Assembly: GCA_951406725.2 (NCBI GenBank)
Contig: OX597824.1
Span: 2,914,001 to 2,978,000 of the forward strand
Length of the DNA: 64,000 nucleotides
Direction of reading: 5' to 3'
Source: Octopus vulgaris
Taxonomy: Eukaryota
Below are positions 2,607 through 60,450 of the stretch, piece after piece; position 1 is the stretch's first letter; each line of letters begins with the position of its first letter. The translations under genes and the position numbers were made by a program. Below the pieces are notes generated by a model that saw nothing but the letters and a program-made list of their open reading frames with translations, did no database searches and was not told the DNA's origin.

Positions 2607-3485
2607 CTATAATTTATGGCCGGATGGGTGTTGTGACCGTGGCTATTTTGGGAGAAAATCAATTCGATTAACAATGTTATTTCATTGTATATTTCAATAT
2701 GTGATGTTATGAAGATGGCATTTTGTTGAGGCTATTATAGTTACTCTAAGTGCATGGTGTGTCATTAACGAGACTGGGCGGAATTGCAGGTTCCCTGGAG
2801 AATGGTTTTATATTACAGAATACGCAGAGAAGGCTGTATAGTGCTACTGGAACATTCCAGTTGCCATTAACATTGCTGTTGGAGAATTTCAAAGTAACAA
2901 AAGTACGGTGACACATGATGCCACCAGGTTTTCTAGAGTCCATTGTTCGTGCGACGCAGCAAATAATGCTAGCAGGAAAAAGCCAACGGAGAATGGGGAA
3001 CATTGCGGAACGTGACGGTGGAGGAAGTGATGATGGTGGTGGTGATAATGGAGTGCAAGGTAGAAATGAGGAAAAGGAACACAAATGGACATCTTCGGAA
3101 AATGTCGTGTCCTACTGAGAGAAGAAGCTTGCTAAAAATGCAGGCGGCATCTGAAAACCACGGTGCATGGACGACAGTATAGAGAAGGGTGGGGGCAAGC
3201 CCGCCCGTGGGGGCAATTGCGCTCGCAGGCTTGTATACTCGGGTGTACAAAATATATCAAATTTTTCAATTATAAAAAATATACAATACTCGTATGCCTC
3301 TTTGTAACATATGTCGCATTTCTATTATGATTTAAACGGTTAGACCTGAACAGAAATCATCCGGTAATTGCCATATGAATGGAAATTTTAGTTTCCTTAT
3401 AAAACCCATATTGCTCGGTTTGTTCCACCCCCTTGAGACCCAACCACACCCTAGATGAAAAATATAGAAAACTTCATAAGTAATA

Positions 3486-3800
3486 TTTCGTTTTTGGATT
3501 TGGTTTGCAAGATTCTTTATATGAGTTCGTGTGTTGAAGCATATTCTATTGTATCTGGGGAGAGTCATTTTCTTTTTGTGCCTTATGTAACACACTCACC
3601 GATAAAATTTCCACGTTTTTCTTATTTTTATTTTCCTAAAATTTTCGTTGCGTCTTGCAACCATAAACTATTGAAAAGGTTGCAAGACGCAACGAAAATT
3701 TTAGGACAATTAAAATAGGAAAAAAGTGGAAATTTTACCGGTGAGTGTGTTACATAATAAGGCTCAAAAAGAAAATGACTCTCCCCAGACATAATAGAAT
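3486..3800. repeat. Palindromic element (~120-bp inverted arms, 3543-3800), PLE pLTR-like, with a hammerhead-like motif; same family as 60174-60398
   Basis: Arms read directly as reverse complements. 3668-3704 reads cta TTGAAAA g GTTGC-aagac-GCAAC GAAA at TT tag. Confidence 0.8.

Positions 3801-5239: not shown

Positions 5240-5311
<72 letters not shown>
4922..5311. repeat. (GATA)n/(GACA)n microsatellite complex flanking the 3' end of the Tx1 element
   Basis: Direct reading of tetranucleotide arrays, interrupted by GA-rich sequence. Confidence 0.9.
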
Positions 5312-5312
<1 letters not shown>

Positions 5313-5828
5313 GTTTCTTTATTGGCCACACAGGGCTGCACACAGATGGGACAAGTTACAAGGTAGAGCTTTTCTTTTGGGGGATGAAAAAAAAAAAACA
5401 AAAAAACAAAAAAAGGGGGTGGCGTAGGTTTCGATCAAGAGGGATCGTAAAAGGGAAGAAAAGAACAAAAATAAATAAATTAATTAAATAAAAAATAAAT
5501 AAGAAAAATAAAAATAAAAAAAAAGAAAAGGAAAAGGAACAAAAGAAAAGAGGAATGAAAAAAGAAGAAAAAAGGGGAAGAGGAAAAAAAGGAACGATCA
5601 ATAGGGATCGTGTATCACAGTGTTATGATATATGGTGTAAAGGGGAAAGCAAGTAAGGTTTATCCGTGGGAAGAAAAGCCTACGAAAAAGACCACGGTAA
5701 CCTTGGTCAATATTGTTATGTGTTACCACATTTGTTTGCAAGTGGGTAACCCTCTGTTTTCAATTTCTGGCTTCATAGGATTATGCTCAAGGTGGCTTCG
5801 TCATTCATACGTGCCATCCTTGCTACAT

Positions 5829-8800
5829 TCACCCATCTTTTTTAAAACATTCGCTAGACAAAACTTGCCTCTCAACTCTCACTTTCCTTTTCAAGTGGTA
5901 CTTGAAGAAGTTGATGAGAGATTGACCAGAGAGGAAAGTGTTTGTCTCCAATCCTTTCAGACGCGTCCACCAGATACATTCTTTCGCCATAGCCACAAGG
6001 ATGATGAAAATAGCTCTTCCTTCCCGTTTGAAGGAAGGAGGCGCGACAATATTGACGATAGACTCAGCTGATAAACCGACTCGTCCCACACGTGACAGCA
6101 GTTGTTCGACATAAGCCCACAGGTCGGAAATTGTTGGACACTGCACGAGTGCGTGCAGAACGGTTTCGTCGCTCTGACCGCATCTCGGGCAGGTCGGCCC
6201 CGTGTTTCTCGAGCCGTGTCTGTAGAGCTTATCCCGAACGGGTAGCGCTTCTCGGTAGCACTGCCAGGCCAGGGATCTCTGGAAGTTGTCCATGGGCCCT
6301 GGCCCGAAAGTCGTCCTGAACAGGCGGGTCAGGTACTCCTCGTCGACGTCCAGGTTCGCCCCGAGCTCGTCGTCGTACCTCCCCTCCATTAATCCCCTAT
6401 AGAATGCTTTGGTTGTGTTGAAGTCACTCAAGGTCGACCCAGGACGGCAGAGTTGCTTGAGAGCAACGCGACACTCGCGCTGCCATTCGCCCTTCCTCGG
6501 CCTCTTTTTGATCCACGACTGCAGTTCGGTCATGGAGACGAGCTGCGGGAAAGCGTGCCTCACAAACGGCGACCACACCTGTTCACCGTCGTCTACATAG
6601 AGCCAGAGATGTCGCAGTCTCAGCACGTGTCTGCGCATCATCAACCACGGCATGCCCAGTCCTCCTTTTAACGGGTGTTGACAGCAAATGGATTGCCTGA
6701 CCATCGGGACGCATCCTTTCCACAAGAAGCGAAAGAGAATGCGTTGTAGTTTGGTGATGGTAGGGTCGGGAGAAGGCACGACGGTCAGGCGGTAGTAGAT
6801 GACGGACGCGATGTACGTGTTCGCCACCCCCGCCCGACCTTTTAGGGACAGTTTCCTCTCGGCCCATTGCCGGGCGAGAGTGACCACCCTCCTCGTTATC
6901 TCGTTCCAGTTCTTTTCCACTTGGAGGTCCGGACCAAACCAGACCCCAAGCAACTCAACCGGGCCGTCGGTCCAGCGTCCCACGACGGAGGAGCTGGTGG
7001 ACGGCATGGGCTTGTTTCTCCAGGTGCCTAGTCGCAAGCCCACTGACTTTTCCCGGTTGATTTTCGCTCCTGTCACCGCTTCGTAGTTTTTCAGTGTCTC
7101 GCCGACCAGCTCGATGTGCTCGTGGCTAGACACTATGACGGTGACGTCGTCCGCGTATGCAGACACGCTCGTCCCGCATCCCAGTTCTCGCGGGATGCCC
7201 CTCAAAGTTGCCAGCTTCCGCAATAATGGCTCGAGAGTCAATACGTATAGAAGCGACGAGAGGGGACATCCCTGACGGACCGAACGTGCGATGTCGAAGG
7301 GTCTCGATAGATGTCCATTCACGCGAATTACCGAACGGATGCCTCTGTACAAAGCGGCTATCCAGCCGCGGAAGACGGGACCGAAGCCAGCCGCTCTGAG
7401 GACCGCCTCCAAGTATCGATGGTCCACCCTATCGAAAGCTTTCGATTGATCCAAATTGATCAGCGCTCCACCCATGCCAGGTTCGTTAACTACCCTGTCT
7501 ATGATGTAGCGCATCAGATGGAGGTTGTCATGGATGGTCCGGCCCGGCACGGCGCATGTTTGCGCCTTGTCGACTAGTTTCTCGATGACAAGCGCCAACC
7601 TCTTGGCTAGCACCTTGGCCAAAATTTTCAAGTCTGCATTAAGCAGAGTGATGGGCCTAAAGTTATCTATTACATTTCCCTTGTTTAGATCTTTCTTCAG
7701 CAGTGTTACGGCTCCTCGGCTCACAAAACCAGGAATGGTCCCGTTTTGCTGCCAGTTGCAGTACACCACCGCCAAGAGATCTCCAAACAAGTCTGGCATA
7801 CAATTGTAAAGCTCGTAGGGTAGACCATCCAAACCCGGTGATTTGTCCCTCGAGCATTCTGCCATCGCGTCCTGCACTTCCGCCGCCGTGATGGCACCTT
7901 CGCAGCACCCTGCCTTTCTTGTCGAGAGTCGTGGTAGGCTATGTAGGTAGGCACTGAAGTCCACCCTACGTTCTTGCCCTCCACTCGTCCCGAACAGTCG
8001 GGCAAAATGCTGCTGAAAGGCCTCACACATTTTACTTGGCTCGAGCAATTCGCGCCCCTGTTTATCTACCAGGGACCGAATGGTGGCTTTGTTGCCCTGT
8101 TGCGCCTCTGCCACCCGGGCCTCTCTCGCGGCTCCAACACCTTCGTTCCTTAGAGCACGCATCCTAGCTCTGACAGCACATCCTTCGTGTTTGGCGTTGA
8201 AGTGTTGGTCGAGGGCCAACCTCGCCGCCAAAACGTCGGATGCGATGCCGCTTCTAATTGCCTCTTCTAGCTTCTTAACTAGCTCACCCTCTACTCTATT
8301 TCTATCTATGGCTAGTGCTTTGCTGTACCTAATCGCTTCTGCTTTTACTGCTCTCTTGAGGGCAAACCACCATTTGATGTTGATGATGGCTCCCGTCAAA
8401 GCTCTCTTTACTAGTGTGCTAATCCGGTCTCTGAAAACCTGTCTCGATGGGAAAGACGCGTTTAGTTTCCAGTATCCTGGACCCTGCCTAAGTGTCTTAC
8501 CTAAGCCTAGCGTACATGTCACAAGTTTGTGATCCGTGTAGCTGACAATGTGGAATTGTGGACATCCTATGCTATCTCTGTCTACTGTCCTACACAGTAT
8601 CCTATCTAGATACGATCTCGACGACCCGATGCGGTTGTTCCATGTCCACGTTGGCGCATTCGGGTGGTCAGACAGTTCAAAGCGTCTGAGCAGGTCTCTG
8701 AGGTATTTGCATCCCCGTCTATTCCTATCTCTACCCACGTAGTCTACATGCATGTCCAAGGTAGCATTCCAATCCCCCACTAAGAGTAAAGAACGAGACG

Positions 8801-9194
8801 TTCCCAAGAATACTTCTAGACGTTGAAAGAAATCCGCCCGACCCGTTAAGGGCGGTGCGTAGACTGTTACGAGTCGAAAAGCGCACCCATTGCTGCTGTC
8901 GACATCCAGGACGACCAGTCTACCCTCCGGGTCTACGAATATTGTCCTTACTTTGAGATCCAGACTCTTGCGAAAAAATACCGCGGTGCCACTACCGCCC
9001 ATTCTCGGCAGACAGGGGGGAAAATAAATGTTGAACTGTCCGCCAAACATGGTCTTTAGGGCCCGCGGATTGTGGAGTCTGGTCTCACTTATGGCTATGA
9101 TTTCTAACTTATGTGACTTTATGTCATTTAAGAGGTACCCTTGTTTCCAAGGGCACCCCAAGCCACGTGCATTTACACAACCAATCTTGATCAT
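5829..9194 (-). CDS. ORF2 polyprotein: AP-like endonuclease, reverse transcriptase and C-terminal CCHC zinc finger (Tx1-like)
   Basis: APE motifs NARGL, ISET, GDWN, YLDRI, TDHK. RT motifs SPGLDG, FRPITLLN, DQSKAFDRV, VRQGCPLS, YADD, LLGVWF, GGLG. C-terminal CPRC..ETVLHALVQC. An A-run frameshift near 5840 gives FKKDG*; the shifted frame continues RWVNVARMARMNDEATLSIIL* to about 5773. Confidence 0.93.
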   Translation of the reverse strand: MIKIGCVNARGLGCPWKQGYLLNDIKSHKLEIIAISETRLHNPRALKTMFGGQFNIYFPPCLPRMGGSGTAVFFRKSLDLKVRTIFVDPEGRLVVLDVDSSNGCAFRLVTVYAPPLTGRADFFQRLEVFLGTSRSLLLVGDWNATLDMHVDYVGRDRNRRGCKYLRDLLRRFELSDHPNAPTWTWNNRIGSSRSYLDRILCRTVDRDSIGCPQFHIVSYTDHKLVTCTLGLGKTLRQGPGYWKLNASFPSRQVFRDRISTLVKRALTGAIINIKWWFALKRAVKAEAIRYSKALAIDRNRVEGELVKKLEEAIRSGIASDVLAARLALDQHFNAKHEGCAVRARMRALRNEGVGAAREARVAEAQQGNKATIRSLVDKQGRELLEPSKMCEAFQQHFARLFGTSGGQERRVDFSAYLHSLPRLSTRKAGCCEGAITAAEVQDAMAECSRDKSPGLDGLPYELYNCMPDLFGDLLAVVYCNWQQNGTIPGFVSRGAVTLLKKDLNKGNVIDNFRPITLLNADLKILAKVLAKRLALVIEKLVDKAQTCAVPGRTIHDNLHLMRYIIDRVVNEPGMGGALINLDQSKAFDRVDHRYLEAVLRAAGFGPVFRGWIAALYRGIRSVIRVNGHLSRPFDIARSVRQGCPLSSLLYVLTLEPLLRKLATLRGIPRELGCGTSVSAYADDVTVIVSSHEHIELVGETLKNYEAVTGAKINREKSVGLRLGTWRNKPMPSTSSSVVGRWTDGPVELLGVWFGPDLQVEKNWNEITRRVVTLARQWAERKLSLKGRAGVANTYIASVIYYRLTVVPSPDPTITKLQRILFRFLWKGCVPMVRQSICCQHPLKGGLGMPWLMMRRHVLRLRHLWLYVDDGEQVWSPFVRHAFPQLVSMTELQSWIKKRPRKGEWQRECRVALKQLCRPGSTLSDFNTTKAFYRGLMEGRYDDELGANLDVDEEYLTRLFRTTFGPGPMDNFQRSLAWQCYREALPVRDKLYRHGSRNTGPTCPRCGQSDETVLHALVQCPTISDLWAYVEQLLSRVGRVGLSAESIVNIVAPPSFKREGRAIFIILVAMAKECIWWTRLKGLETNTFLSGQSLINFFKYHLKRKVRVERQVLSSECFKKDG

Positions 9195-9238
9195 AATCCT
9201 AATGAATTAGAATACAAGTGAAAGGAACAGAGGGTTAC

Positions 9239-11156
9239 TTACTGCTCGAAAGTTTTTGCTTTCTCCTCCTTTAGTTTGTCCTCGAGGAGATCCCAGTACA
9301 GTTTCTTTGTGAGATATTTTTGGCATTTACTAACCGCACTGGGGAAAATGCCTTTGAGTGTGTGGTGCAGACTTTTGGAGATGTGTAATATTTTGATCTG
9401 GTTTGGTGGTGTTGTGTATGGGTGATTGTTTGTTTTTATGTCATCTTCTGTTATGTTTGTTTTTGATTGGATGTATTCCATCAAATTTGTGTTTTTGGTG
9501 TCTATAGCTGTGAGCATGTTTGCTGTATATATTTTTGTGGTGTTGGTGTGGCTGTTGTTTGTGTTGGGTTTTGAAATGTCTTCGGGAGATTTATTTCCCC
9601 CTGCTTTGTTCGTGTTTGCATTTGGTTTGGTTGTGTTTCTGCTCTTTATTTTCCTTCTTTTTGTAGCTATTTGCCATTCCTCACTGGTTTCGTCTTCTGA
9701 CGAAATTTCTGAGGAATCAGTAGGGGGTAGGGGTATGTTGTAGGCTTCTATGTATGTCTGTGTAAGTGGTTGTGCTGTTGTTTTCGTTGTTGTTGGTTGT
9801 TGAGTGTTTGCGTGTGTTGAGTGCGGTATAAGGGATGGGGGATCAGTTTTTGTGTGTTTTCTTTGTTTTTCTGTTCCTTTGGGTTTTGCTGTTGTTGGTG
9901 GTGTTGGTATTTTTTCAGGTGTTGAGTGGTTTTTGGTTGATGACGGATTAGCTTGGTGTGCTTCTCTTGTCGTCTTCTGTGTTGATGGTGGTGTGGGTAG
10001 TAGAGCTTTTTTCCGGAGTGCTTTGGTTGTGGTAGTGGTTGTTGTTGTTGCTCTTGGTGTGCAGTGGTTGGGCACGTCTTTTTCAAGTGTGTTTCGCTTC
10101 CACACAAATAGCAGCGTGGTCGCCTTCCCTCTACCACTACATAAAGTTTGTAGCCTCCTGGCAGTTCTATAGTGGTGGGTATCTTCTCTTTTGCTGCTTC
10201 ATCCAATTGAAGAAGGAATTCGATTGATTTTCCCACATAGTCTTTCTCTCCTAGAACAGCGATTTCAAGCGATGTCTCTGACATTGTCTCTGTCATTTCA
10301 AAGCAGATGGCAGAGACTAACCATTGTGTTTCGACTTCAAGGGGTACATTTTTTATTTGGACTTTCGAGATTCTCTTGTTTAAATAGATTGGTATCATTA
10401 CCAAATCGTCCGAATGCAGCTCCAATGTGGAAAAACGTTTTGCTAAATTTTCGTTGAGGAAACGTACTTGGACTGTACCAAATTTATTTCCCCAACTAAT
10501 ATATTCCTTCGAGTCCTATGCAGGACGAAGGCATTTTTCAATTTTTTCCTGTGGTGCATTTTCTGGTCGTCTTGTTTTCTTGTTTATTACTTTATAAATT
10601 ATTGTTTTTTTTTGTGTGTGTTTTCCACGATGTGTTGTGGAATGTGAAGGTGCAATTTGTCTCCTTCTTTGGTGAAGAGTGCTTTTGTGCGGTTTATTTC
10701 CTGTGTGGTGAATTTTACAATTGTTCGTTTTTGTTTTGTCACATCCGCGAAATTCGTTTTAAATTTGGCGGTGTTGGCAGCAGAAGGGTTAGTTGTAGCA
10801 GTTGAAGTCGTAGTAGTGGTGTTGGTGTTGGCGGTGTTATCTTTGGTAGGCGGCTTTGTGCCCATTTCGTTGTTGTTGTTGGTGGTGGTGATGGTGGTGG
10901 TGCTGGCATTCATGTTTACGTCTGTATTCGTTTTTGAAATCCCTTTCTCCGTCCTTTTATCATCGACAAGTGGTGTAGGGAGTGGGTGGAAATCTAAGTT
11001 AATGATCGCGACGTTAGTTTTGCTGTTGTTGTTGGTGGTGGTGGTGACAGCGGTGTTCAAGCTGCGAGGTTTAGCAGCTAGTGGTAGCAATAGTGTTTCG
11101 CTACCGTTCTGCATGACTGGCGGGCTAGCCACGTGGTTTCTAGTTGCCATTTTCAA
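9239..11156 (-). pseudogene. Disrupted ORF1 (gag-like nucleic-acid-binding protein) of the Tx1-like element
   Basis: Three ORF pieces (10599-11156, 9748-10425, 9239-10105) joined by frameshifts and a stop, one frameshift at a T-run near 10605. Includes KVQIKNVPLEV...LYVVVEGRRPRCYLCGSETHLKKTCP (C-X2-C-X4-H-X4-C knuckle) and a Thr/Asn/Pro-rich tail. Ends 45 bp before ORF2. Confidence 0.8.
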
Positions 11157-11370
11157 AATGAAAAATGGCTAAAAAGGACCAACGAAAGTTTTGAAAGTTT
11201 TTGGTAATTTCGCCCATATAGGGGCGGAATTCTACGTGAATAATTCTCAGGTTTTTTAGTGAATGAACTTGCACAACGATTAAAACAAAATATTTGACAA
11301 CAAGGAGTTTTAAACATATAAAAGTGGCCAACTTACGTGGAACCGAAATGACTAGCGTCCGTCCATTGTG

Positions 11371-11853
<483 letters not shown>

Positions 11854-14090: not shown

Positions 14091-14983
14091 GCAGTGAATC
14101 ACCAACATCAACGGAAGATCAATCATATTGCGTCGGGAGAATATGGAATAAAATATTTTTTCATCACAGTGAAAAGCCACATTGTATGAGAAGTGGGGAG
14201 AGGGGTGATATTGCTAAAGCTTAATAGCACCTCTGCGACTGAGGCCCACGGGATTAGTAAAGTGATCATCTACACCATAAAAGCTGTTTACTGCTAAATT
14301 CTCCTAGGTTTGACAAAGTACCTATCACCTGTTCTAAACACGTCTCAGATACTCGTGAATTTGCGACAGCAGCATCCTGTGAATTAATAAATACACAAGA
14401 ATCAACAACTGAGTTGTTATTATAGATGGAGTGTATGTGTGTGTGTGTGGGGGGGAGAGTATATTGATTATCGATTCCTTAAATGAAAAACACCAGGCCT
14501 CCAAAGCTACATGCCTGTAACTTATTTTTCAACTAGATACGAAGATCCTAAACTGTTGACTGCTCACCAGAAGAAATAATGACACGTTGGAAGAAGGAAT
14601 AAAGGGTGGCTTAGCAAATGGTAAATCAAAGGCAGCGGGAAGAGAAAGGAAACGCCTGGCATGGATCGATTATCAGAAATCATTTTTTGGATACTGCAGA
14701 CATATGTAAATAAGCAGCGTCAACACTAAACCGGTATATCGACCAAACCATGTTAAAATGGAATAAAAATAGCAAAGAACTGCAGGGCCCAGAAGAAAGA
14801 TGAACGAAACCAAGACGAGAGTTCTTAGAAGGAGATTTCTGATCTCCTCTACTGCTTTTAAACATTTTGGTGTCTTTTAAAATATTTGCTGAATGAAACC
14901 ATCAATGGTCATAAAAAGCAAAATGCGAAGTGTAAACCATTTCTTCGATGTGAATTAGTTAAATCTATTAAATACAAATACCT

Positions 14984-15213
14984 ATTTCTTTACTACCCAC
15001 AAGGGGCTAAACACAGAGGGGAAAAACAAGGACAGACGAACGGATTAAGTCGATTATATCGAGCCCAGTGCGTAACTGGTACTTAATTTATCGACCCCGA
15101 AAAGATGAAAGATAATGTCGACCTTGGCGGAATTTGAGCTCAGAACGTAACGGCAGACGAAATACTGTAAAGCATTTCTCCCGGCGTGCTAACGTTTCTG
15201 CCAGCTCGCTGCC
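14984..15213 (-). mobile_element. tRNA-derived SINE family A (Nin/Deu-like central domain, Tx1-like 3' tail)
   Basis: GGCAGCGAGCTGGCAGAAACG head, B-box-like GAGCTCAAATTCC, central TTTCATCTTTTCGGGGTCGATAAATTAAGTACC. Flanked by an imperfect ~18-bp TSD. Confidence 0.85.
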
Positions 15214-15952
15214 TTTTATTAAACATAAATACCTTTCAGAAAAAAACTTAACCTGAAGATTGATCATAAATTTAATCATAATAAAGAAATGAGCACGGCA
15301 TCACTCAGGATATAGAAGTGGGTTTGGAATTAGAAAAATGCTGGCAAAGCTTCTGTAAGAACAGACAAGTTAGCTAAAGCAGAATATTAAATTAGACACA
15401 GCCAATGAAATCAAGGCATTAGACCAGAGTTATCCATACTGATTCTTAGGAGCTGATGAAACTGATAAGATGCAACACAAATGAAAGGAAAATTATAAAA
15501 GAAGACTAGAAAAGTGACAGTAATATTAGAAGAACCTGAATTTAAAACGAGAAGTAAGATTACAGGGATAAACACACTAGCTAATCCAGTTATAAAACTA
15601 TAATTTCGTAGTAATAAATTGGAATGTAAGTATATTGAAGAGCTTCAAGTTGGAAACAAGAAATATTGTTACGATACAATCACCTGAAAACTGATATAAA
15701 AAGGATTTACGTATGTCACATGCATTGCTTCATATAAAAAATGACTGCTACAACAATAATGGATAGGGGAGAGGAAACTGGTGAAGGGGATATGGGGAGC
15801 TGTGAAAAACAAAACATATTTATCCATAAATAAGTGGATAATTAAATGCAATCTAGAAATTAACCACAGCAAGAAGAACGATTTCGATAAGGATAATAAA
15901 CACATCAAGGAGATAAAGGAAATTACTAAATCAAAATGTAATTATCAATATA

Positions 15953-17791: not shown

Positions 17792-18314
17792 ATATATATA
17801 TACTTACACACGCACACATATATATATATGTATGTATGTATGTCCGTGCACAACCTAGGGAAATAAGAGGCAAATATCATGTGTTAAGTATGCAACCAGG
17901 GTATTGAAATGAATGACACGGTCGTCTCTGGTTGCCCAGTTTTTCAAAGTCAGAATATATCAATAGAGAGATAGAGTTAGTAGCTGTGTCTTTCGGGGGG
18001 CAATATGCCGACAATTTGATGTTAAACACTATGTCCTTACAAATAGCATTAAAGAAAGACTGGATGCGACATTGAGGAAGGATCCTGTTCACATTGAGAA
18101 GAGAATTAAGTCAAACCATTGAAATGGATAATGAAGAACTGGAAGGAAAATTTCTGTCTTTTGATAGAAATCTTGAATCCTTCTGCTTTAAACACACCTC
18201 GGGATAAATTCAAGTAACTATCAAGTGGAAAACCATTGAAATGGAAATAATCGAAATGTGATGTACGAAAGTAATGGCACCAACACTAATTAGGTCTCAA
18301 GGATGAGAAAGAAT

Positions 18315-18543
18315 GCGGCGAGCTGGCAGAAACGTTAGCACGCCGGGCGAAATGCTTTGCGGTATTTTGTCTGTCTTTACGTTCTGAGTCCAAATTCCGC
18401 CGAGGCCGACTTTGTCTTTCATCCTTTCGGGGTCGATTAAATAAGTACCAGTTACGCACTGGGGTCGATATTATCGACTTAATCTGTTTCTTTGTCCATG
18501 TTTGTCCTCTCTGTGCTTAGCCCCTTGTGGGTAGTAAAGAAAT
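18315..18543 (+). mobile_element. SINE family A, full length
   Basis: Same head, central domain and tail as 14984-15213. Confidence 0.85.
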
Positions 18544-18810
18544 AGGTATGAGAAGGAGGATGAACATGAATAGATCTCTTTACAAAAAAGCATTCTTGTA
18601 GCCTTGATTGTGTAGATCAAGTATTGGTAACCTTTTCGAGAAACGGGCTGCATAAGACAAGACTCATCATCAGGCGGGCGGCGCTGCTAAATATGTTCAA
18701 TGCGATTTTTTCTTAAATGTGCCATTCAGAAAGTCTTACAGACGGATGTTCGTCCAGAACTGATGTAGATTATGTTGTGAGAATTGTATTTTATTAGTGG
18801 GTATTAATTA

Positions 18811-18990
18811 AGACGACGAACTTGGCAGAAGCGTTAACACGCTGAACAAAGTGTTTATCTGCATTTCGTTCTTCTTTACGTTCTGAGTTCAAATTCCAAC
18901 GAGATTTATTTGTCTTTCACCCTCTCAGGATCGATGAAATAAACACCAGTCAAATACTGTGGTCGATCTAATCGATTTCCCCTCCCCTCA
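18811..18990 (+). mobile_element. Older SINE, family A head with alternative tail B
   Basis: TTCTGAGTTCAAATTCC B-box and degenerate central domain, followed by CCCCTCCCCTC. Confidence 0.6.
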
Positions 18991-20113
18991 AAAACTCGAT
19001 CACTTCATAAATTTTCATGATGTTTTCATTCGTTCGCGAGGTCACCCTGAACAAAATTGGTCTTCAAGCGATAAGTGACCATTCGTAAGGGGTGAAAACC
19101 ACTCGTAAACTTGTGTTTTGCTCGTGGCAGCCTCCTTGTAAGTTGGAATGTAAGACAGCTCTTTCGGCCGTCGCTTTCTCTAGTAGAAAACCGAATTTCA
19201 CGGAAGCACAATGTATTTTTCGTTTCAAATATCACAAGAATCGACGAACAGGGGAGAAGCACTGCAAAACAACGACGCAACACGTGGCAGGACAACCACA
19301 GCTGACAACGCTGGTCGGAAGGTGGATGCCTGAGGGTCGCATCAAATAGCTTCTAGCAGCGGAAGCCTTGAATTACAACGGGCTTGTCTCACAAAGAACG
19401 TTTCAGGTTACTTTTGGGTACCCCATGTGTAATAATATATTGTATTATGTGCGTTGATTCTCTAGGTCTGAGGCATAATCATCTTACATGAAACCGGTTC
19501 TTGGTGCCAAAAATGTCGGACATCGTTGCTCTACATAATCACTACCCTATAATATAACGCATACTGCACAGCACATATTCTAAAAACCCATTACCAACTG
19601 CTAAAATTCATAACAGAACTCATATATTACATACCCTAACCAATAATATAGCACATACTACATAATCTGCCACTAAATCTCATAACTCTCTTAATACATT
19701 CAATCACTTTCCAATATAACTCACAGTGCGTTCTCTGCATAGTTACTACCGCTGCGAAAACATGTAACACCGTTCATATAACACATACTCTATACAATCG
19801 TCATGCTATAACGCATACCGCACGGAACATACTCGATGCATTCATCAGCCGATAATATAACACGACAAAACTCATTGAAGATACGTTCACCAAAACGCAA
19901 TCACCAGTCAACAAAACAACAACACACACACACACACACACACACACCATGGCCAACAAACGTAACAATAAAGTAAATTCTAGAAAGAACAAAACACATC
20001 TTCGCACAAAGCAAATCTGATGTAATTATACAAACGCGAATCAACAGTCCCAAAAGACAACGTTGAACTCAGTTCAAAGACACGACAATTCACCTGGTGG
20101 TGGGTGTTGGGGG

Positions 20114-20599: not shown

Positions 20600-21821
20600 G
20601 GTCTCTTCCCCATCTAGTTGTTTATGTTTTTGCCTAGCTAACTAACAGTTTAGTCTATATTTCTATCTTTCCCCCCCGCCCCATTCCCCCCCTTTCTCTC
20701 TTCCTCCAAGTATTTATTTCTCTTTCGTCCTTTTCCTGCTAATTTTTTCCTCAGCTTCTCTTTCTTACCCTCTCTATCTCTCTCTTTTCTTATTTCTCCT
20801 TAGCTTTCTTTCTCTCTCTTTTCCCTTCTCCGAATGCCTACCTCTTCTTCACACTCAGGTCTATTTGACTCTGTCTTTTGTAAAAGTGCTAACGAGAGGA
20901 ATTCTGCTAATGAGAAAGAATGAAATTTAATTAACAAGTGCTGCAGAGAGGTTTCTCTACAAATTTTTAATCTCCATTCCTGTCTAGAACCATTTCCTTT
21001 CATTTCCATTTGTAATGCCTAAGACTTCGGTAACTCTCCGATCCTCCTCAGATGCCTCTCATATAACATCCTCGGAACTTTGAAACGATTCCCTTACGGA
21101 ATCCAGTGGTTTGTTCTCATACCGTTTCCCAGACAAGTTATTCTGGAAATTTCGATTATTCCACTTGTTACTTTTGCTTGAACCAGTTTCTATACATATG
21201 TCGTTTGACAGAATTACCCAAGACCACCAGCTAAACTCACACGCTTATACTGGATATGCAGGCTTTTACCCTTTCGGAGTTTTAAAAAGAGGCCAATCTA
21301 GAACAGCGGAACAATAAAATCTGTCCTTGCAGTATTTTCTCTGACATTCTGCGTTCTGAGTTCAAAATTTCGCCATGGCCTCATCCGGAGGTAGACTTAA
21401 TCAATCGGCCGATTCAACACCATCACATGCTATCGTGGCTGATTTTAGCAGAGCCTACTCTGTTGTAATTACTTGGGAGAGCATCTGGTTTGAGGAGACC
21501 TTCTTCCTACTTTCCATCTGGCTCCAGCGGTTTTGTAAAGGATCATGGGTACCCCTTCCTTTCTAATTATAAGATAAATAGAAAAACTATCATTTTCTGG
21601 TAGGAAAATTTGGTGCTAAAAATTAAGACCTTCAGACCTTCAATGCATTTTTGCATTGAGGAATACCTGAGCCGTATGGGACGCAGTAGTTGTTGGTGAA
21701 GATCTATTCGGTTGTTCAGAGGAGATGCTTCCAAATGGTAGACATGCTTGTGACTACTCTCCTCATCTTCTGTGACCTCCTCCCCCCACGCATGATATGC
21801 CTTTAATATCATGTGAACAGA

Positions 21822-22021
21822 AGGTGGTGAGCTGGCAGAGTCGATAGTAGTACGCTGGGTAAAATGCTTAGCAGCATTTCGTCCACCCTTACGTTCTGAG
21901 TTCAAATTCCACCGAGGTCGACTTTGCTTTTCATCCTTTCGAGTTCGTTGAGTACTGGGGTCGATAGAATCCACTTAATCCCTTCCCCAGAATCGCTGGT
22001 CTTCTTTTAAAATTTGAAACC
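21822..22021 (+). mobile_element. Older SINE, family A head with tail B
   Basis: GGTGGTGAGCTGGCAGA head, GAGTTCAAATTCC, tail ending GCTGGTCTT..AAATTTGAAAC. Confidence 0.7.
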
Positions 22022-22867: not shown

Positions 22868-23220
22868 GGCGGCGAGCTGGCAGAATCGTTAGCCCGCCGG
22901 GCGAAATGCTTAGAAGTATTTTGTCTGCCGCTACGTTCAAATTCCGAGTTCAAATTCCGCCGAGGTCGACTTTACCTTTCATCCTTTTGGGGTCGATTAA
23001 ATAAGTACCAGTTACGCACTGGAGTCGATGTAATCCGTTTGTCTGTCCTTGTTTGTTCTCTCTGTGTTTATCCCCTTGTGGACAATAAAGAAATAAGAAT
23101 CGTTAGCACGCCGGGTGAAATTTTTAGCGGTATTTCGTCTGCCGCTACGTTCTGAGTTCAAATTCCGCCGAGGTCGATGAAAAGAGTACCAGTTACGCAC
23201 TGGGGTCGATGTAATCGTCT
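22868..23220 (+). mobile_element. SINE family A, full copy fused head-to-tail to a second partial copy
   Basis: The first copy ends AATAAAGAAATA at ~23096 and continues into AGAATCGTTAGCACG of a second, internally deleted copy. Confidence 0.85.
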
Positions 23221-33420: not shown

Positions 33421-33650
33421 GGCGGCGAGCTGGAAGAAACGTTAGCACGCCAGGCAAAATGATTAGCGGTATTTCGTCTGCCGCTACGTTCTGAGTTCAA
33501 ATTCCGCCGAGTTCGACTTCGCCTTTCATCCTTTCGGGGTCGATAAATTAAGTACCAGTTACGTACTGGGGTCCTTGTAATCGACTTTATCCGTTTGTCT
33601 GTCCTTGTTTGTCCCCTCTGTGTTTAGCCCATTGTGAGTAGTAAAGAAAT
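33421..33650 (+). mobile_element. SINE family A, full length
   Basis: Same head, central domain and tail as the other copies. Confidence 0.88.
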
Positions 33651-33819
33651 AGGTATCTCACCTACATCTACGAGTAGAGTTCCAGTTCAGCCGAGGTTGT
33701 CTTTACCTTCTCTTTTTTCGGAGTCGATGAAACAAGTACCAGTTGCAGACTGGGGGTAATTGATGTGTCATAAATTTCAGGCTTTGTGCCTATAGTAGAA
33801 AGGATAGTTATTAATTTGA

Positions 33820-36646: not shown

Positions 36647-36842
36647 GAAAGCAGCGAAATGCTTTGAGGTATTTCGTCCGCCGCTGCGTTCTGAGTTCAA
36701 ATTCCACCGAGGTCGACTTTGCCTTTCATCCTTTCGGGGTCGATAAATTAAGTACCAGTTACGCTCTGGGGTCGATGTAATCCCTTTGTCTGTCCCTGTT
36801 TGTCCCCTCTATGTTTAGCCCCTTGTGGGCAATAAAGAAATA
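36647..36842 (+). mobile_element. SINE family A, 5'-truncated, with 11-bp TSD
   Basis: TSD AGAAAGAAGTT at 36636-36646 and 36843-36853. Confidence 0.85.
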
Positions 36843-37864: not shown

Positions 37865-38347
37865 TGACGATGATGATGATGAAGGTGGATGGTGATTGTT
37901 ATGTTGCTTGAAATGGCGGTGGTGGTAGTGGTGGCAGCTGCGAAAGCGAAGGTGAAAGCGACGATGATGATAACGATCGCAACAAGGACGACGACTCAGT
38001 TCCAAAAAAGTGAAAATAATAAAACCAACAAGAAAAGACTGGAGAGTCAAACCGTGTTCGAAGAATATTTTAGGCTGACAACAAAGGGTGCAATTCTTGA
38101 TAGAAATCAATGGTTTCCATAGAAGTCTGATTAGTTCTCTGGTTTTAGACTGTTTAACAACTGAAGACAATAAAGAACTCTTTCAATTAATAAAAAGACT
38201 AAATAGAAACGACGCGGCGAAACAGATGGGAGAAACTAAAATTTAGAAAAAAAAACTTTCTAATTACGATATAATTAGATTTCAACTCTTATTTCATAAT
38301 GAAGAAATATTGTCATGACCTCTGTAGAATACGTGGTATTATAGAAA

Positions 38348-38745
38348 GGCAGGGAGCTGGCAGAACTGTCAGAAAAATGCTTAGCTGTATTTCTTCAGAG
38401 TTACTACGCTCCTAGTTCAAATTATGTTATTACCTATCTTCCTTTCAGGGTCGATAAAATAAGTACCAGTTGAGAACTGGGGCTGATGTAATCGACTTAC
38501 TCCCTCCCCTGAAATTGCTGGCCTTGTGCCAAAATTGGAAATCATTATTATTATTACTAAAGCAGTCAGCTGGCGTATTGCGCTGGCAGAAGCGTTAGCA
38601 TACGGGGCGAAATGCGTAGCGGCATTTCATCTGTCTTTACATACTGAATTCAAATTCTACTGAGGTCGATTTTGCTTTTCATCCTTTTGGGGTTTATAAA
38701 ATAAGTACCAGTTGAGAACTTAGGTCGATGTAATCGACTTGACCG
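38348..38745 (+). mobile_element. Two consecutive older SINEs (family A head; first with tail B ending in (ATT)n)
   Basis: GGCAGGGAGCTGGCAGAA head, GGGTCGATAAAATAAGTACCAG, tail AATTGCTGGCCTTGTGCCAAAATTGGAAATCATTATTATT. Second copy starts at ~38560. Confidence 0.7.
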
Positions 38746-43778: not shown

Positions 43779-46173
43779 AACTTAGAATAACTTAGAAAGG
43801 TTTTGGCCAGTATTGGCCCAGGCCATGTCTAACTTAATAGCACCACCTGGCGAAGTCTTTCAGTTCAGGATTTGGGCACCAAGGCCCATTCGATTTGGGC
43901 ACCAAGCCCATTCGAACATCTTAATACAATTTCAGCTTCTCTAGTCTACCCCAGTAGTCAAGGTCTGACATGCCATCTATCTTTTTTGTGATTGACCTTT
44001 GGGGAGCTTCAATTCTCATAATATTTTGTTTTGTGTAGGGAGACCACAGTGGACAGCAGTATTCAAGGTGGGGTCGGGCAAAAGTGGAGAAAAGAAGGAT
44101 AATAGCGTGGGAATCTCTCGACTGGAAGGTTCTGAGAATCCAGGAACACATTCTGCGGGCCATGTCAACTTTGCTGCTTATATGTGTAGCCCAGCTTATG
44201 TTGTTGTCCACTGTTACTCCCAGGTCTCTGATGTTGTTGGATGCCATGAGAATTTCTCCAGAAGGAAGAGAGTATGGGAGTTTCAGAGCGTCCTCCCTTC
44301 CAAAGTGGATCAGTTCGAATTTGTCTTCATTTAGCAACATGTTATTCTTTTCCGCCCATTGGACAACAGCCAGTAGGTCTGACTGAAGGTTTATTCGGTC
44401 ATCCACGCCATTGATGACCTTCTGGAGCTTGGAATCATCAGCGAAGGTTCTGATGTTACTGTGTTTGATGGTGTCAGTAATATCATTTATGTAGATGATG
44501 AAGAGAAGTGGGCCCAACACAGTGCCTTGTGGGACACCACTGCTGACTTTGGCTGGGCTGGATTTGACTCCTTCGACTACAACATGTTGGGTTCTGTTAG
44601 ACAGGAAGCACTTGATCCACTGCAGCAGCTTTCCAGTGACACCAATATTGGACAGCTTTCTCAGAAGGATCTTATGATCAACCCTGTCAAAGGCCTTGCT
44701 GAAATCAAGGTAGATGACATCAGTGTTGGAACCTTCTACCAAGGCTCTCAAAATGTCATCAAAATGATGCAGTAGCTGCGTCAGGCAATCTCTCCCATTA
44801 CGGAATCCATGCTGGTTGGGGTTCAGCATATTATGACTCTCAGGAAGTGAGTCATACGCGATCTCAGCACCCTCTCAAATACCTTGATGATATGAGAGGT
44901 GAGTGAGATTGGACGGTAATTCACGGCAAGCGATTTGTTTCCTTTTTTGAAAACTGGGACAACAGACTGGGATAGAAGGTCTTCTGGTATATATCCAGCA
45001 TTCAATGAGTTCCGCCACAGATTGGCTAGAGGGGGTGCAAGTTGGTTTTGACACATCTTCAAAACACAAGCAGGGAACTTATCGGGACCTACTGCTGAAT
45101 TATGCTTCATTTCCTTTATTGCTGCTAAGACATCAGGAGCGCCAAATGTTATGTCCGATAAAGTGTATTGGGGAGTAACATCACTGATACAGCCCAGATC
45201 AGTCATATCAGGATTGCTGAAAACAGAGCAATATTGTTTCTGCAATATCTCTCCCATGGTTTTGGCATTGTCTTGAAGAGTACCATTTTCATCAATCAGA
45301 GGGCCAAAAGTAGAACCAGTGACTCTGTGTTTTTTTGCAAATGAAAAGAACACTTTGGGATTGAGTTTAATCTTCTCAATGGTCCAGGCCTCTTCAGCTC
45401 TTCGCTGACTATTGATGATAGACATCATGTTGTTTTGGAGTTTATGTTTTTTAATCTCTAGCGACGAGATGGCAGTCAGGTTGGTGTGTTGCTGTTGACA
45501 GTATTTCAGCATGTTGATCTTTTTGTTGATTCTTTTAATTTTCCTTATGAGAGATTTTCTATTTCTAGGGATTCGACACTTAGATTTGTTTGCAGATCTT
45601 AATGGGGTGTGTCTTGCACATATGTTCGTGATGGTGTCTACAAGTGACTGCCAGGACTTTTTGATGTTAGTGGGTGTGTATGTGTGCGTGAAGGACCAAT
45701 CGACTTGTGCAAGATCATTATTGATCGCTTCCCAGTTTGCATTGTGGAAATCCATAGTGTCAAATGGATGAACAGGAAGGATGACATTTGTTTTGCATTT
45801 TGGCCAGTGAAATCTCAGATCACAGAGAACCATGTCATGGTCGGAGAGTAGGGTTTTCTCCACTGCAATATTGTGGATAGTATCAGTGTGATTGCTGAAA
45901 ATTAAGTCTAAGACGTTTTTTTGAGATCTCGTTGGTTCGAGTACCAGTTGGGACAAGAAGAAGTCATCCATGAAGTCAAGAAGCGATTCCACTTCCTCCC
46001 TATCAGGGGTTGAGAGAGAAGAACCTGGCGGCAGACTGTTTGTAGACCAGTCAACCCCGGAAAGGTTGAAGTCTCCCATCATTAAAATGTTGTCAGGTTG
46101 ACACTGCTGAATGAAACACTTTATGCTGTTGAGGCATTCCTTGAAGCATGGTAGGGGCGTTTGGGGTGGTCTG
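43779..46173 (-). mobile_element. 5'-truncated CR1-like LINE with an internal deletion, inserted in the (TATG)n satellite
   Basis: Partial APE (MGDFN, VLDLIFS, LSDH) and RT. The ORF stops at KLKLY where related copies continue YSL.RR. A short 3' UTR ends in TTCTAAGTT x2. Confidence 0.85.
43921..46170 (-). pseudogene. CR1-like APE-RT ORF with a one-base frameshift at ~44830
   Basis: SAVGPDK, NYRPISLTS, NQHGFR, DFSKAFDRV, GVPQGTVLGP, FADD, DLGV and LEYCCPLWSP, spread over ORFs 44823-46457 and 43921-44829. Confidence 0.88.
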
Positions 46174-46572
46174 TGTATGTATGTATGTGTTGTATGTATG
46201 TATGTATGTATGTATGTATGTATGTATGTATGTATGTATGTATGTATGTATGTATGTATGCATTGTATGTATGTATGTGTTGTATGTATGTATGCATTGT
46301 ATGTATGTATGTATGTGTTGTATGTATGTATGTATATATGTATGTATATATGTATGTATGTATGCATTGTATGTATGTATGTATATATGTGTTGTATGTA
46401 TGTATGTATGTATGTGTGTATGTATGTATGTATGTATGTATGTATGTATGTATGCATTGTATGTATGTATGCATTGTATGTATATATGTATGCATTGTAT
46501 GTATGTATGTATGTGTTGTATGTATGTATGTATGTATGTATGTGTTGTATGTATGTGTTGTATGTATGTGTG
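46174..46572. repeat. Complex (TATG)n satellite, right of the CR1 element
   Basis: Same variant units as 43402-43778. Confidence 0.92.
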
Positions 46573-46865
46573 TAGCTTTCTGTTTAGAGCAGATGACAAA
46601 GTCTATTCATAAATTAGAAAGTACATTACATCTCTCTCTCTCTCTCTTCATCTCTCTAACACACACTCTCTATCTCTGACACACACAATCTCTCTCACAC
46701 ATTCTCTCTCTTCCTCTCTCTCTCTCTCTCTCTCACACACCATCTCTCTTTCTCTTTCATAAGACTTAAGAATGTATCATTGTGTTAAAGACAGCAGCTA
46801 AATGACTGAGCGTCATTGGCGTCAACTACAGTTTTGCGCAAATATGGCGACAGGACAAGTTCACC

Positions 46866-51451: not shown

Positions 51452-51867
51452 TATTTCTTTATTGCCCACAGGGGGCTAAACATAGAGGGGACAAACAAGG
51501 ACAGACAAAGTGATTAAGTCGATTACATCGACCCCAGTGCATAACTGGTACTTTATTTATCGATCCCGAAAGGATGAAAGGCAAAGTTGACCTCGGCGGA
51601 ACTTGAACTCAGAAACGTAACGGTAAACGAAATACCTATTTCTTTTTTACCCACAAGGGCTAAACACAGAGGGGACAAACAGGGACAGACATAGGTATTA
51701 AGTCGATTACATGAACCCCAGCGCGTAACTGGTACTTAATTTATCGACCCCGAAAGGATGAAAGGCAACCGTCGACCTCGGCGGAATTTGAACTAAGAAC
51801 GTAACGGCAGACGAAATACGGCTACGCATTTCGCCCGGCGCGCTAACGATTCTGCCAGATCGCCGCC
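51452..51867 (-). mobile_element. Dimeric SINE family A flanked by one 15-bp TSD
   Basis: Full copy 51867-51636 joined to a 5'-truncated copy. TSD TAAAACAAATAATAA at 51434-51448 and 51869-51883. Confidence 0.88.
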
Positions 51868-52874
51868 CTAAAACAAATAATAATTTAAGTGAAGTTAACA
51901 GTGTTTGTGTGTTTTTCAATGGCTAACGTATGTTGCACTCTGCAATCGTTTTCTAATATTTTTGTGTGTCTTTGTTGTTTTTGTGTGACTAAAGTTTGGA
52001 GAGATGATTTAACGTCCATGCACCTTTCGATTCATATCAGTACAGTAATGAAAAGGCCCTTAAAGACCAGCTTCAGATGTCATTGAAAATCCACAAGTCT
52101 GGGACTAGAGTTTGTAGACGAGCTTGAGCGTCGTAAAAATGCTTCGTATTATTTTTCCGTCTCTTTACGTTCTGAGTTCAAATCCCGCTGAGATAAGCTA
52201 TGTTTTCAACATTTCACGGTCAATAAAATAATGCACCAGTCCAGAAGGGGATCGATAGCATCGAATTAAACAATTTTCTCCATATTTTGTCCGTGTACCT
52301 AGGCATGGAGCATTATTATTATTATTATTATTATTATTTGGTAGAACGTCGGACAAAATGAATTGTGGTATTTAGCTACGTCCCTGTTTTACTCATTTAC
52401 TCGTTTAAGTCCCTGGGCTACGTCAGTGCTGGATCATCTGCTGGATCATCTGCTGGTAGGAAGGATAAGTCGAACAGATCTACTCCGGCATTTGATTTTT
52501 AAAGTCTGGGACTTAATCTATCGATCACATTTACGGAATGAATCGCTAAATTACGGGGATGTAAACACCAATTGTCAATCGATAGGCACACACACACGAA
52601 CACACACAAACACAGACACGCGCGCACTCACACACATATGTACATACACACACGCACCACAAGCTTATCACAATGTGTCAGATTTCCTCACAGGATGTTG
52701 ATCGGCGCTCGATGTTATTCGTGGTTGCGAAGCGAATATCTCAATTACCAGTCAACACCTACTTAAGGTTTCAGTTCTATTCGTGTAAAGATCGATTTTA
52801 CCTGTTATCTTTCTGTGATTGGTAAACTACTACAACTAAAAGGTTTCATATAATCAATTATAATTATTCGTTTA

Positions 52875-55069: not shown

Positions 55070-55290
55070 GGCGGCGAGTTGGCAGAAACGTTAGCACGCC
55101 GGGCGAAATGCGTAGCCGTATTTCGTCTGCCGTTACGTTCTGAGTTCAAATTCCACCGAGATCGACTTTGCCTTTCATCATTTCGGGGTCGATAAATTAA
55201 GTACCACTTACGCACTGGGGTCGATGTAATCCGTTTGTCTGTCCTTGCTTGTCCTCTCTGTGTTTAGCCCGTTGTGGGTAGGAGTGAAAT
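55070..55290 (+). mobile_element. SINE family A, full length, with 14-bp TSD
   Basis: TSD AGATATAAGGTCTG at 55052-55065 and 55291-55304. Confidence 0.9.
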
Positions 55291-55601
55291 AGATATAAGG
55301 TCTGAGGTGTTGTTCTTCCTTCTCAGCTTAATACGCAAAGAAACAAACAAGAGAAAGTCTATATTTTATATATTTTATATATTCTGTCTGTAATGTAAAT
55401 TGTCAGGAATTATTAAGTATAATACGTTCATTCTATTCCCACTCGGTTAGATTCCAATGTTCTATTCTGTTCTTTTCTTGCATTCGCTCTGTCAATAGAA
55501 GGTTCACTTTCAACTAAGTTTCTGAGGTGAACTTCAGACAATATTCATAATATTGGTGATGGTGGTGGTGGTGGTGTCGGCGGTGATGATGATGATGATG
55601 A

Positions 55602-55770
55602 TTTCAAATTTTGGCACAAGGCCAGCAATTTCGGGGGTGGGCTAAGTCGACTATATCGATCCCAGTGCTCAACTGTTACTCATTTTATCGACCCTGTAAA
55701 GATAAAAGGCAAAGTCGACCTCGCCTGAATTTGAACTCAGAAGGTCAAGATAGATGAAATGCAGCTAAGT
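55602..55770 (-). mobile_element. Older SINE, family A head with tail B ending in (ATC)n
   Basis: Minus strand TTCTGAGTTCAAATTC..GGGTCGATAAAATGAG..AATTGCTGGCCTTGTGCCAAAATTTGAAATCATC. Confidence 0.7.
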
Positions 55771-56116
55771 ATTGTGGTGGTGGGATTCTGCTGTTGAAAA
55801 TGTTGCGTTAATGACTGTTGTTGCAGCTTCTGGCCTTCGTGTGGTGGTGGTGGTGGTGGTGGTAGCAGAGCCGCCGTTTCTCAAGCTCTATTTTGTTGAT
55901 TTTGTGAGCAGTCGACCTTCAAATGAACGTCAGACCTACAAGTGTGCACCTTAGCTTTCTGCCAATATGGTTGTGATGCATGTGCCTGGTGTACCCTTAT
56001 CAGACGGGTAGTCATGATGAGTATACTAAACGTCGTATATTTTACCCCAGTGTCACTTTGATGGCATGCACTGTTCTCTCACTCAATAATAATAATGATG
56101 ATAATTCAATGGAAAC

Positions 56117-58777: not shown

Positions 58778-58783
58778 TATCCA

Positions 58784-60398: not shown

Positions 60399-60450
<52 letters not shown>

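What the first reader, a model, noticed from the sequence alone, without database searches (positions are those of the whole stretch)
5314..5354. The dominant SINE shares its 3' tail with the Tx1-like LINE: a candidate SINE-Tx1 partner pair
Seen: the last 41 nt of the Tx1 element (plus 5314-5354, TTTCTTTATTGGCCACACAGGGCTGCACACAGATGGGACAA) align without gaps to the family A SINE terminus (plus 51454-51494, TTTCTTTATTGCCCACAGGGGGCTAAACATAGAGGGGACAA) at 34/41 identity by hand count. A further ACAAGG match follows a 3-nt gap. Eight SINE A tails occur in the window, several with 11-18 bp TSDs, and neither element has poly(A). Established: shared 3' tails identify the mobilising LINE for stringent clades (L2, CR1, RTE), whereas L1-group elements usually recognise poly(A); Tx1-type tails are known in few SINEs (e.g. 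crocodilian SINEU). Inference: this very abundant SINE is mobilised by this Tx1 family or a relative via a stringent 3' signal.
Basis: partly seen in the sequence, partly recalled or inferred. Interest (0 to 1): 0.85.

Follow-up and report, generated by a model that had tools for sequence, protein, structure and literature searches.

The report
SINE sharing a Tx1 LINE's tail
In what is likely an octopus genome, the last 50 bases of a nearly full-length Tx1-like jumping gene match the end of an abundant short repeat (SINE), so the SINE is likely copied by Tx1-type machinery through a shared tail; such pairs are well known for other LINE groups, but I found none reported for Tx1.

Summary
The match is real: 34 of 41 bases ungapped, about 50 with a 3-base gap, same orientation, ends in register, far above shuffles and above every CR1-like end in the window. 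The tail lies inside the (GATA)n tracts that flank the 6-kb element, has no target duplication of its own and holds the only AATAAA of the 3' UTR, so it likely belongs to the inserted unit. A sister LINE lineage (40% ORF2 identity, host DNA in one MAG) also ends without poly(A), after an invariant GGC-CTNGT-GCC hairpin and a covarying second hairpin; the window's second SINE family (B) resembles that tail. The decisive test, whether other copies of this LINE carry the tail, could not be run: no genome is held and the read tool masked 5296-5551. Against a simple pair: this copy sits in a GATA tract while 0 of 7 SINE insertions do; the shared tail does not fold stably; some relatives turn A-rich right after the stop. 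Verdict: probable Tx1-type SINE partner (0.65), a new variant of a known arrangement; the direct mobiliser may be a relative.

The parts
5312..11372 (-). Near full-length Tx1-like non-LTR retrotransposon (5' UTR, broken ORF1, ORF2, 3' UTR, tail)
   Evidence: Junctions with (TATC)n at both ends; domains
5314..5363 (-). 3' tail shared with SINE A; ends AATAAAGAAA, no poly(A)
   Evidence: 34/41 ungapped, 80% over 50 columns; shuffles
5318..5323 (-). Only AATAAA in the 464-nt 3' UTR
5364..5775 (-). T-rich 3' UTR; present in many related copies down to 5552, untested below that
5829..9206 (-). ORF2, 1125 codons stop to stop: endonuclease, reverse transcriptase, zf-RVT; this copy leaves the family frame near 5837, about 20 codons before the usual stop
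9239..11168 (-). ORF1 in three pieces (9239-10198, 9748-10515, 10599-11168) with a CCHC knuckle
   Evidence: zf-CCHC E 0.14, below cut-off; E 1e-12 to sister ORF1
5240..5311 (+). (GATA)n tract at the LINE's 3' end
11373..11853 (+). (GATA)n/(GGTA)n tract at the LINE's 5' end
14983..15215 (-). SINE A copy, 18-nt TSD (2 mismatches)
18314..18544 (+). SINE A copy, 10-nt TSD
22868..23095 (+). SINE A copy followed by a partial SINE; no TSD found
33421..33651 (+). SINE A copy followed by a B-type partial SINE; no TSD found
36654..36842 (+). 5'-truncated SINE A copy, 11-12-nt TSD
51452..51871 (-). SINE A tandem pair (full copy plus 5'-truncated copy, two tails) inside one 15-nt TSD
55070..55291 (+). 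SINE A copy, 14-nt TSD
38345..38545 (+). SINE B copy: same head and core as A, tail with GGC-CTTGT-GCC then (ATT)n; resembles sister-LINE tail
55598..55790 (-). SINE B copy, same tail then (ATC)n

Best explanation
The last ~50 bases of this Tx1-like LINE are likely its own 3' end, and the tRNA-like SINE A carries a version of that end and is likely copied in trans by the ORF2 protein of this LINE family or of a relative with the same tail. Shown: shared terminal sequence, common end point, no poly(A), tail inside the LINE's flanking microsatellite, 10-18-nt TSDs at SINE insertions, and a conserved, structured, poly(A)-free tail in the sister lineage. Inferred: Pol III transcribes the SINE from its head; ORF2 binds the tail (stringent recognition), nicks DNA with its endonuclease and primes reverse transcription at the nick. 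The SINE likely gained the tail by a template switch from LINE RNA. Because this copy lies in a GATA tract and the SINEs do not, the working partner may be a relative that does not target microsatellites.
For: Identity and shuffles; 83% over 41 nt lies within the 35-61 bp, 72-95% range used for bivalve SINE-LINE pairs (PMC11481361, passages). (TATC)n adjoins both the 5' end and the tail end, so the tail came in with the element; no TSD round the tail alone; homology stops 50 nt from the end and has no SINE core. The tail holds the only AATAAA of the UTR. The copy looks young (5935 of 21610 contigs in run X1 are 99+% alike) yet its tail is 6/41 from the nearest SINE subtype plus a gap; P=0.0002 at an assumed 2% decay, 0.016 at 5%. 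Sister lineage (14-row clade, SH-aLRT 100, quick tree): 38 of 41 loci end in GGCCTNGTGCC + hairpin + AATAAA, the other 3 are cut short; kept between families of 48% ORF2 identity; second hairpin covaries, e.g. TA 6, CG 3, GC 1 of 10; folds at z -2.8, -3.4 and -1.6; none of 22 junctions has poly(A). CR1-like ends in the window score 11-27 against the SINE A tail, the Tx1 end 51-55.
Against: Only one LINE copy seen with its tail; family-level presence untested. The 6/41 distance alone does not exclude an ordinary decayed SINE piece (copies are 7-9% from consensus; P=0.08). The shared tail has no stable fold (z +1.3 for the LINE; -1.2 to +0.6 for SINE A) and no two-sided change in the candidate 4-bp hairpin. 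A profile of sister tails does not hit the window LINE's tail or SINE A; pairwise likeness is weak (4/1000 and 630/1000 shuffles for the LINE tail; 17/1000 and 426/1000 for SINE A). 0 of 7 SINE A units are in or near GATA tracts. In all 4 runs some contigs (46, 53, 32, 8) turn A-rich right after the ORF2 stop, which may be a poly(A)-ended subfamily. The sister loci all come from one MAG. RTE, L2 and R4/Dong ends were not available for comparison.
Confidence: 0.65

Rival explanations
1. The direction is SINE to LINE: a source copy or subfamily of this Tx1 element picked up the last 50 nt of a SINE A (3' transduction or template switch) and now carries it along; the SINE's true partner is another LINE.
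For: SINE A is abundant (8 tails in 64 kb); the window LINE's tail is much closer to SINE A than to sister-LINE tails; 3' UTR variants exist among relatives, some A-rich right after the stop; different insertion contexts.
Against: The sister lineage, in contigs where no SINE A was found, ends the same way, at AATAAA plus a few bases with no poly(A); the UTR has no other end signal; no better partner seen in the window.
Confidence: 0.2
2. Chance neighbour: an old 5'-truncated SINE A piece already lay at the edge of the GATA tract and the LINE landed next to it, so the tail belongs to this locus only.
For: 15% divergence fits an old SINE piece (P=0.08 at the SINE copies' own 7.5%); one copy only; family tail untested.
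Against: Needs same orientation, exact abutment, no TSD round the piece, no LINE end of its own and (TATC)n directly at the LINE's 5' end as well; GATA tracts are 1.3% of the window.
Confidence: 0.1
3. Shared ancestry without present partnership: both inherited the tail from an older Tx1 element, but ORF2 recognition is relaxed and the tail is not needed.
For: No conserved fold in the shared tail; possible poly(A)-ended relatives.
Against: SINE A has no poly(A) and keeps the tail intact in 8 of 8 ends; the sister lineage shows covariation in its tail.
Confidence: 0.05

Closest known systems
Stringent SINE-LINE pairs with a shared 3' tail (eel UnaSINE/UnaL2; bivalve SINEs with CR1, CR1-Zenon, L2, Nimb; PMC3747384 Table 1 part 1; PMC11481361 passages)
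   Same: tRNA-like head, core, 40-60-nt LINE-like tail, no poly(A), similar identity range
   Different: Partner here is L1/Tx1-group; no Tx1 pair in the part of the Ohshima 2013 table read, and 'Tx1' does not occur in the bivalve paper's main text; no stable stem-loop shown in this tail
L1-clade pairs with shared tails: maize/sorghum ZmSINE2/3 with LINE1-1_ZM; Chlamydomonas SINEX-3_CR with L1-1_CR (PMC3747384 passages and table)
   Same: L1-group LINE with a conserved ~45-80-nt 3' end shared with a tRNA SINE; hairpin with compensatory changes, as in the sister lineage here
   Different: Plants and algae, non-Tx1 branches; the algal pair ends in poly(A)
Crocodilian SINEU with Tx1-Mar (PMC4494074 passages and section 16)
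   Same: A SINE thought to be mobilised by a Tx1-clade LINE
   Different: Link rests on shared target and snRNA heads; SINEU has poly(A) and no LINE-like 3' half; here the tail is shared and the targets seem to differ
Microsatellite-targeting Tx1 elements Kibi (TC)n, Koshi (TTC)n, crocodilian (TTCC)n/(TTTC)n families (as described in PMC4494074)
   Same: LINE flanked by one microsatellite on both sides
   Different: Repeat here is (TATC)n; specificity rests on one copy
Octopus tRNA/CORE SINEs OR1 and OR2 (Ohshima and Okada 1994, not read; named in PMC4824008 and PMC5804259)
   Same: tRNA-like head and shared core with two alternative tails fits these families (recalled, not tested)
   Different: Their sequences could not be fetched, so identity is untested; no partner LINE given in the passages read

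Membership tests
Tx1 clade LINE | ORF2 with APE endonuclease, RT and C-terminal zinc motif (L1 group) | tested here: met
   Pfam Exo_endo_phos, RVT_1, zf-RVT; best solved relative human L1 ORF2, E 4e-49, R2 4e-20
Tx1 clade LINE | ORF1 with CCHC knuckle rather than the mammalian L1 ORF1 type (criterion recalled) | tested here: met
   CX2CX4HX4C in 9748-10515; zf-CCHC E 0.14, below cut-off; atlas hits CCHC clusters at 0.88-0.90
Tx1 clade LINE | RT groups with named Tx1 references in a tree | not testable with these tools
   No relative carried a Tx1 name; the tree has no named Tx1 row. 'Tx1' rests on architecture.
Tx1 clade LINE | Target-sequence preference (common, not universal) | tested here: inconclusive
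   One copy with (TATC)n on both sides; tracts are 1.3% of the window
tRNA-derived SINE | Short, non-coding, multi-copy, Pol III A/B boxes, TSDs | tested here: met
   ~230 nt, 8 tails, 7-9% divergence; TGGCAGAA and GTTCAAATTCC box-like motifs read from the sequence; TSDs in 5 of 7. Rfam gives no tRNA hit, so the tRNA origin is by motif only.
Octopus OR1/OR2 CORE-SINE | Identity to published consensus | not testable with these tools
   SINEBase supplements not held; motif search of 2 of 3 MetaSINE supplement files empty
Stringent SINE-LINE pair | Shared 3'-terminal sequence ending in register | tested here: met
Stringent SINE-LINE pair | Tail present in the LINE family consensus | tested here: inconclusive
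   Read tool masked 5296-5551; pattern scans of prokaryote, metagenome and viral collections empty; indirect support from flanks
Stringent SINE-LINE pair | Conserved stem-loop with compensatory changes in the shared tail | tested here: not met
   No significant fold; 88.9% paired but no two-sided change in 9 rows. Met only in the sister lineage's own tail.
Stringent SINE-LINE pair | Same target preference and overlapping age | tested here: inconclusive
   Targets differ in this window; SINE copies 7-9% diverged; LINE relatives span 99+ to under 90%
Stringent SINE-LINE pair | Trans-mobilisation depends on the tail | not testable with these tools
   Needs a cell assay

The most novel reading that the evidence does not exclude
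An invertebrate Tx1 lineage uses stringent, poly(A)-free 3' tails, and both main SINE families of this genome (A and B, same head and core, different tails) are driven by members of it: A by the window family or a close relative, B by a family carrying the GGC-CTNGT-GCC tail of the sister lineage. Tx1 elements, not RTE or CR1, would then be the engine of the octopus SINE expansion (SINEs are 11.6% of the O. vulgaris assembly, PMC13282606).
Probability: 0.35. Interest if true: 0.72.

Novelty: new variant of a known kind. Interest (0 to 1): 0.52.

Why it matters
It would name the enzyme source for a very abundant SINE whose partner I did not find in print (10 searches; Repbase, Dfam, SINEBase files and the Zenodo library of PMC13282606 could not be seen). 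It would also add an animal L1-group case of tail-based recognition, which bears on the open question whether relaxed poly(A) recognition in mammalian L1 is ancestral or derived (PMC3747384). The sister lineage's short invariant hairpin plus covarying hairpin gives a directly testable RNA signal.

Tried and rejected
Whole-genome test: none held. Contigs of 4 runs laid on 5296-6195: the tool skipped 5296-5551, so zero depth there is no finding. No RNA holder listed. Pattern scans for the tails or SINE core: 0 in metagenome, genome and viral collections; protein scans of viral contigs 0. Distant relatives (25-33% identity; L001-L080 and L120, L121, L124, L126) show no tail motif I could place at a 3' end; 18 scattered motif hits, mostly in GC-rich sequence. 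Rfam: nothing at gathering score in the window or sister loci; no tRNA genes in 9 sister loci, so no RNA-gene target found. Covariance model of sister tails: SINE B only at E 0.07 and 1.2, mixed with non-SINE hits, weaker than nhmmer. CR1 as partner of SINE A: rejected for the three fragments present. 'TX1' in PMC4176376 is a protein construct name, irrelevant. Earlier scan notes: nothing by sequence or place; word search gave only analogous cases in other genomes. Albertin 2015 not held. The careful tree did not finish; the quick tree is cited.

Full report
Observation. The 41 bases at 5314-5354 match 51454-51494 at 34 positions without gaps, and BLAST extends the match to 5363 across a 3-base gap (80% over 50 columns). 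The same scan finds 8 further matches in the window, all ends of one ~230-nt SINE family (A), whose copies are 7-9% from their leave-one-out consensus. Shuffle controls give 0 of 2000 and 0 of 1000 scores as high. Read in the elements' sense, both end in AATAAAGAAA (SINE copies AATAAAGAAA or AGTAAAGAAA, then TA); neither has poly(A). Five of 7 SINE insertion units have 10-18-nt target duplications.

The LINE. It runs from 11372 to 5312 on the minus strand, with (TATC)n directly against both ends. ORF2 (5829-9206) has endonuclease, RT and zf-RVT domains and is closest to human L1 ORF2 among solved structures; ORF1 is in three pieces with a CCHC knuckle. That architecture fits Tx1 (criterion recalled); no named Tx1 sequence was available for a tree. 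The family is abundant in four public runs, continuous from 6195 to 5552, with many contigs 99+% alike, and this copy leaves the family frame near 5837. The host is likely an octopus (recalled resemblance of the SINE to OR1/OR2 and of the repeat landscape; no call names it).

Is the tail the LINE's own? The direct test failed: no genome is held and the read tool skipped 5296-5551. Indirect evidence favours yes. The tail lies inside the microsatellite that flanks the whole element; it has no duplication of its own; it holds the only AATAAA in the 464-nt UTR, which has no A run; likeness to the SINE stops 50 nt from the end. The tail differs from the nearest SINE subtype at 6 of 41 positions plus a gap: unlikely for a piece inserted after a young LINE copy (P=0.0002 at an assumed 2% decay) but not excluded for an older piece (P=0.08 at 7.5%).

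Relatives. A scan of genome contigs returned 46 loci, 42 of them from eukaryote-like contigs of one MAG, holding head-to-tail arrays of elements with about 40% ORF2 identity. They form, with the window ORF2 and P0001, a 14-row clade (SH-aLRT 100, quick tree), the window element being sister to them. Of 41 such loci examined, 38 end about 700-780 nt past the aligned ORF2 region in C-run, A-run, GGC-CTNGT-GCC, a second hairpin and AATAAA; 3 are cut short. The motif is kept between families of 48% ORF2 identity whose UTRs align best over their last ~220 nt. The second hairpin covaries (10 of 10 and 9 of 10 paired at two positions with three pair types each; one locus did not fit the pattern and was left out), and none of 22 distinct junctions shows poly(A). 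So the nearest lineage behaves like a stringent LINE. These loci come from one sample and are not independent of each other.

A second SINE. The window holds a family B with the same head and core but a tail ending GGC-CTTGT-GCC, AAAATT and (ATT)n. A profile built only from 9 sister-LINE tails ranks four B-type tails first in the 64 kb (E 0.006, 0.02, 0.37, 3); the covariance model is weaker (E 0.07). Pairwise scores of the two best B copies are 26-34 against sister tails and 23-24 against an internal stretch of one CR1-like fragment, so the assignment is moderate. The MAG's host contigs also hold a ~270-nt non-coding repeat at three loci with the same terminal layout (E 0.2-3 only).

Evidence against. 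The shared A tail does not fold better than shuffles and shows no two-sided change. It is only weakly like the sister tails and is not hit by their profile. The SINE A insertions lie 2-24 kb from any GATA tract, while the LINE sits in one (1.3% of the window); if the family targets (TATC)n, as Kibi and Koshi target other microsatellites (PMC4494074), it cannot be the main mobiliser of dispersed SINEs, and a relative must be. Contigs in all four runs show A-rich loose ends just after the ORF2 stop (46, 53, 32 and 8 records, agreement 0.62-0.66) and other UTR variants, so some relatives may end differently. Only CR1-like ends were on hand as rival partners.

Mechanism. Most likely (0.65) the SINE RNA presents a Tx1-derived 3' end to ORF2, which nicks the target and reverse-transcribes from it, giving 10-18-nt duplications. 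Sequence sharing and insertion anatomy are shown; recognition, transcription and direction of transfer are inferred. Rivals: capture of a SINE end by the LINE (0.2), chance neighbour (0.1), shared ancestry with relaxed recognition (0.05).

What is known. Tail-sharing pairs are a standard arrangement. The part of Ohshima's 2013 table that I read lists L2, CR1, RTE, I, Rex1, Vingi, Tad1, R4, RandI and two L1 partners (maize/sorghum, Chlamydomonas) but no Tx1 (PMC3747384: passages and section 21 part 1). SINEBase names LINE-derived regions from Bov-B, CR1 and two L2 (PMC3531059: passages; supplements not held). Bivalve partners are CR1, CR1-Zenon, L2 and Nimb (PMC11481361: passages). SINEU is tied to Tx1 by target and head, not tail (PMC4494074: passages and section 16). 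The 2026 O. vulgaris annotation counts SINEs (11.6%) and L1-Tx1 families but names no partner in the text read (PMC13282606: parts 1-2 of 3 and a supplement search). Also seen as passages only: PMC4758252 (plus section 11 part 1), PMC8967140, PMC4824008, PMC5804259, PMC5786205, PMC7245038, PMC11203168, PMC9004415, PMC4176376. Not seen: Ohshima and Okada 1994, Kojima and Fujiwara 2004, Albertin 2015, Repbase, Dfam and the Zenodo library, any of which may already record this pair.

Verdict. Observation confirmed; interpretation partly supported. A probable Tx1-type SINE-LINE tail partnership, a new variant of a known kind; interest 0.52, limited by the untested family consensus.

Noticed in passing
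window 38345-38545 (+), 55598-55790 (-), 33677-33800 (+), 18808-19012 (+), 21820-22010 (+): SINE family B shares head and core with A but has a different tail that resembles the 3' end of the sister Tx1-like lineage (GGC-CTTGT-GCC hairpin).
   Followed up: partly
L081-L125 (MAG contigs CAXXMW01...): Many contigs of this bacterial MAG are eukaryote-like DNA: head-to-tail arrays of Tx1-like LINEs (period about 6.4-6.8 kb) with no spacer RNA gene found, each tail running into the 5' UTR of the next copy, as if the elements target their own 5' end.
   Followed up: partly
P0037 cluster (Patella caerulea): Eleven related ORF2 proteins carry near-consecutive locus tags, suggesting the same tandem arrays in a limpet.
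   Followed up: no
L132 9500-10090, L136 3180-3450, L137 5150-5470 (-): A ~270-nt GC-rich non-coding repeat with several hairpins ends in the same C-run, A-run, GGCCTT(G/A)TGCC, hairpin, A-rich layout as the sister LINEs; possible SINE-like passenger, no Rfam family.
   Followed up: partly
window 5772 and 5656 (loose ends): Some related copies turn A-rich right after the ORF2 stop and others switch to a different T-rich UTR at 5656; one run shows a joint from 5961 back to 5565 at high depth. Subfamilies with different 3' ends are possible.
   Followed up: no
window 51452-51871, 22868-23220, 33421-33800: Three SINE A copies are followed directly by a 5'-truncated SINE; the first pair sits within one 15-nt TSD, suggesting template switching or a dimeric source.
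   Followed up: no
window 43780-46583 (-), 48700-49400 (+), 58780-59690 (+): Three decayed CR1-like LINE fragments; the first ends in short TTCTAAG repeats and has a duplicated GGGC(C)TTGGTGCCCAAAT stretch that weakly resembles the SINE B tail.
   Followed up: partly
window 3477-3800 and 60170-60400: A palindromic MITE-like repeat occurs at both places.
   Followed up: no
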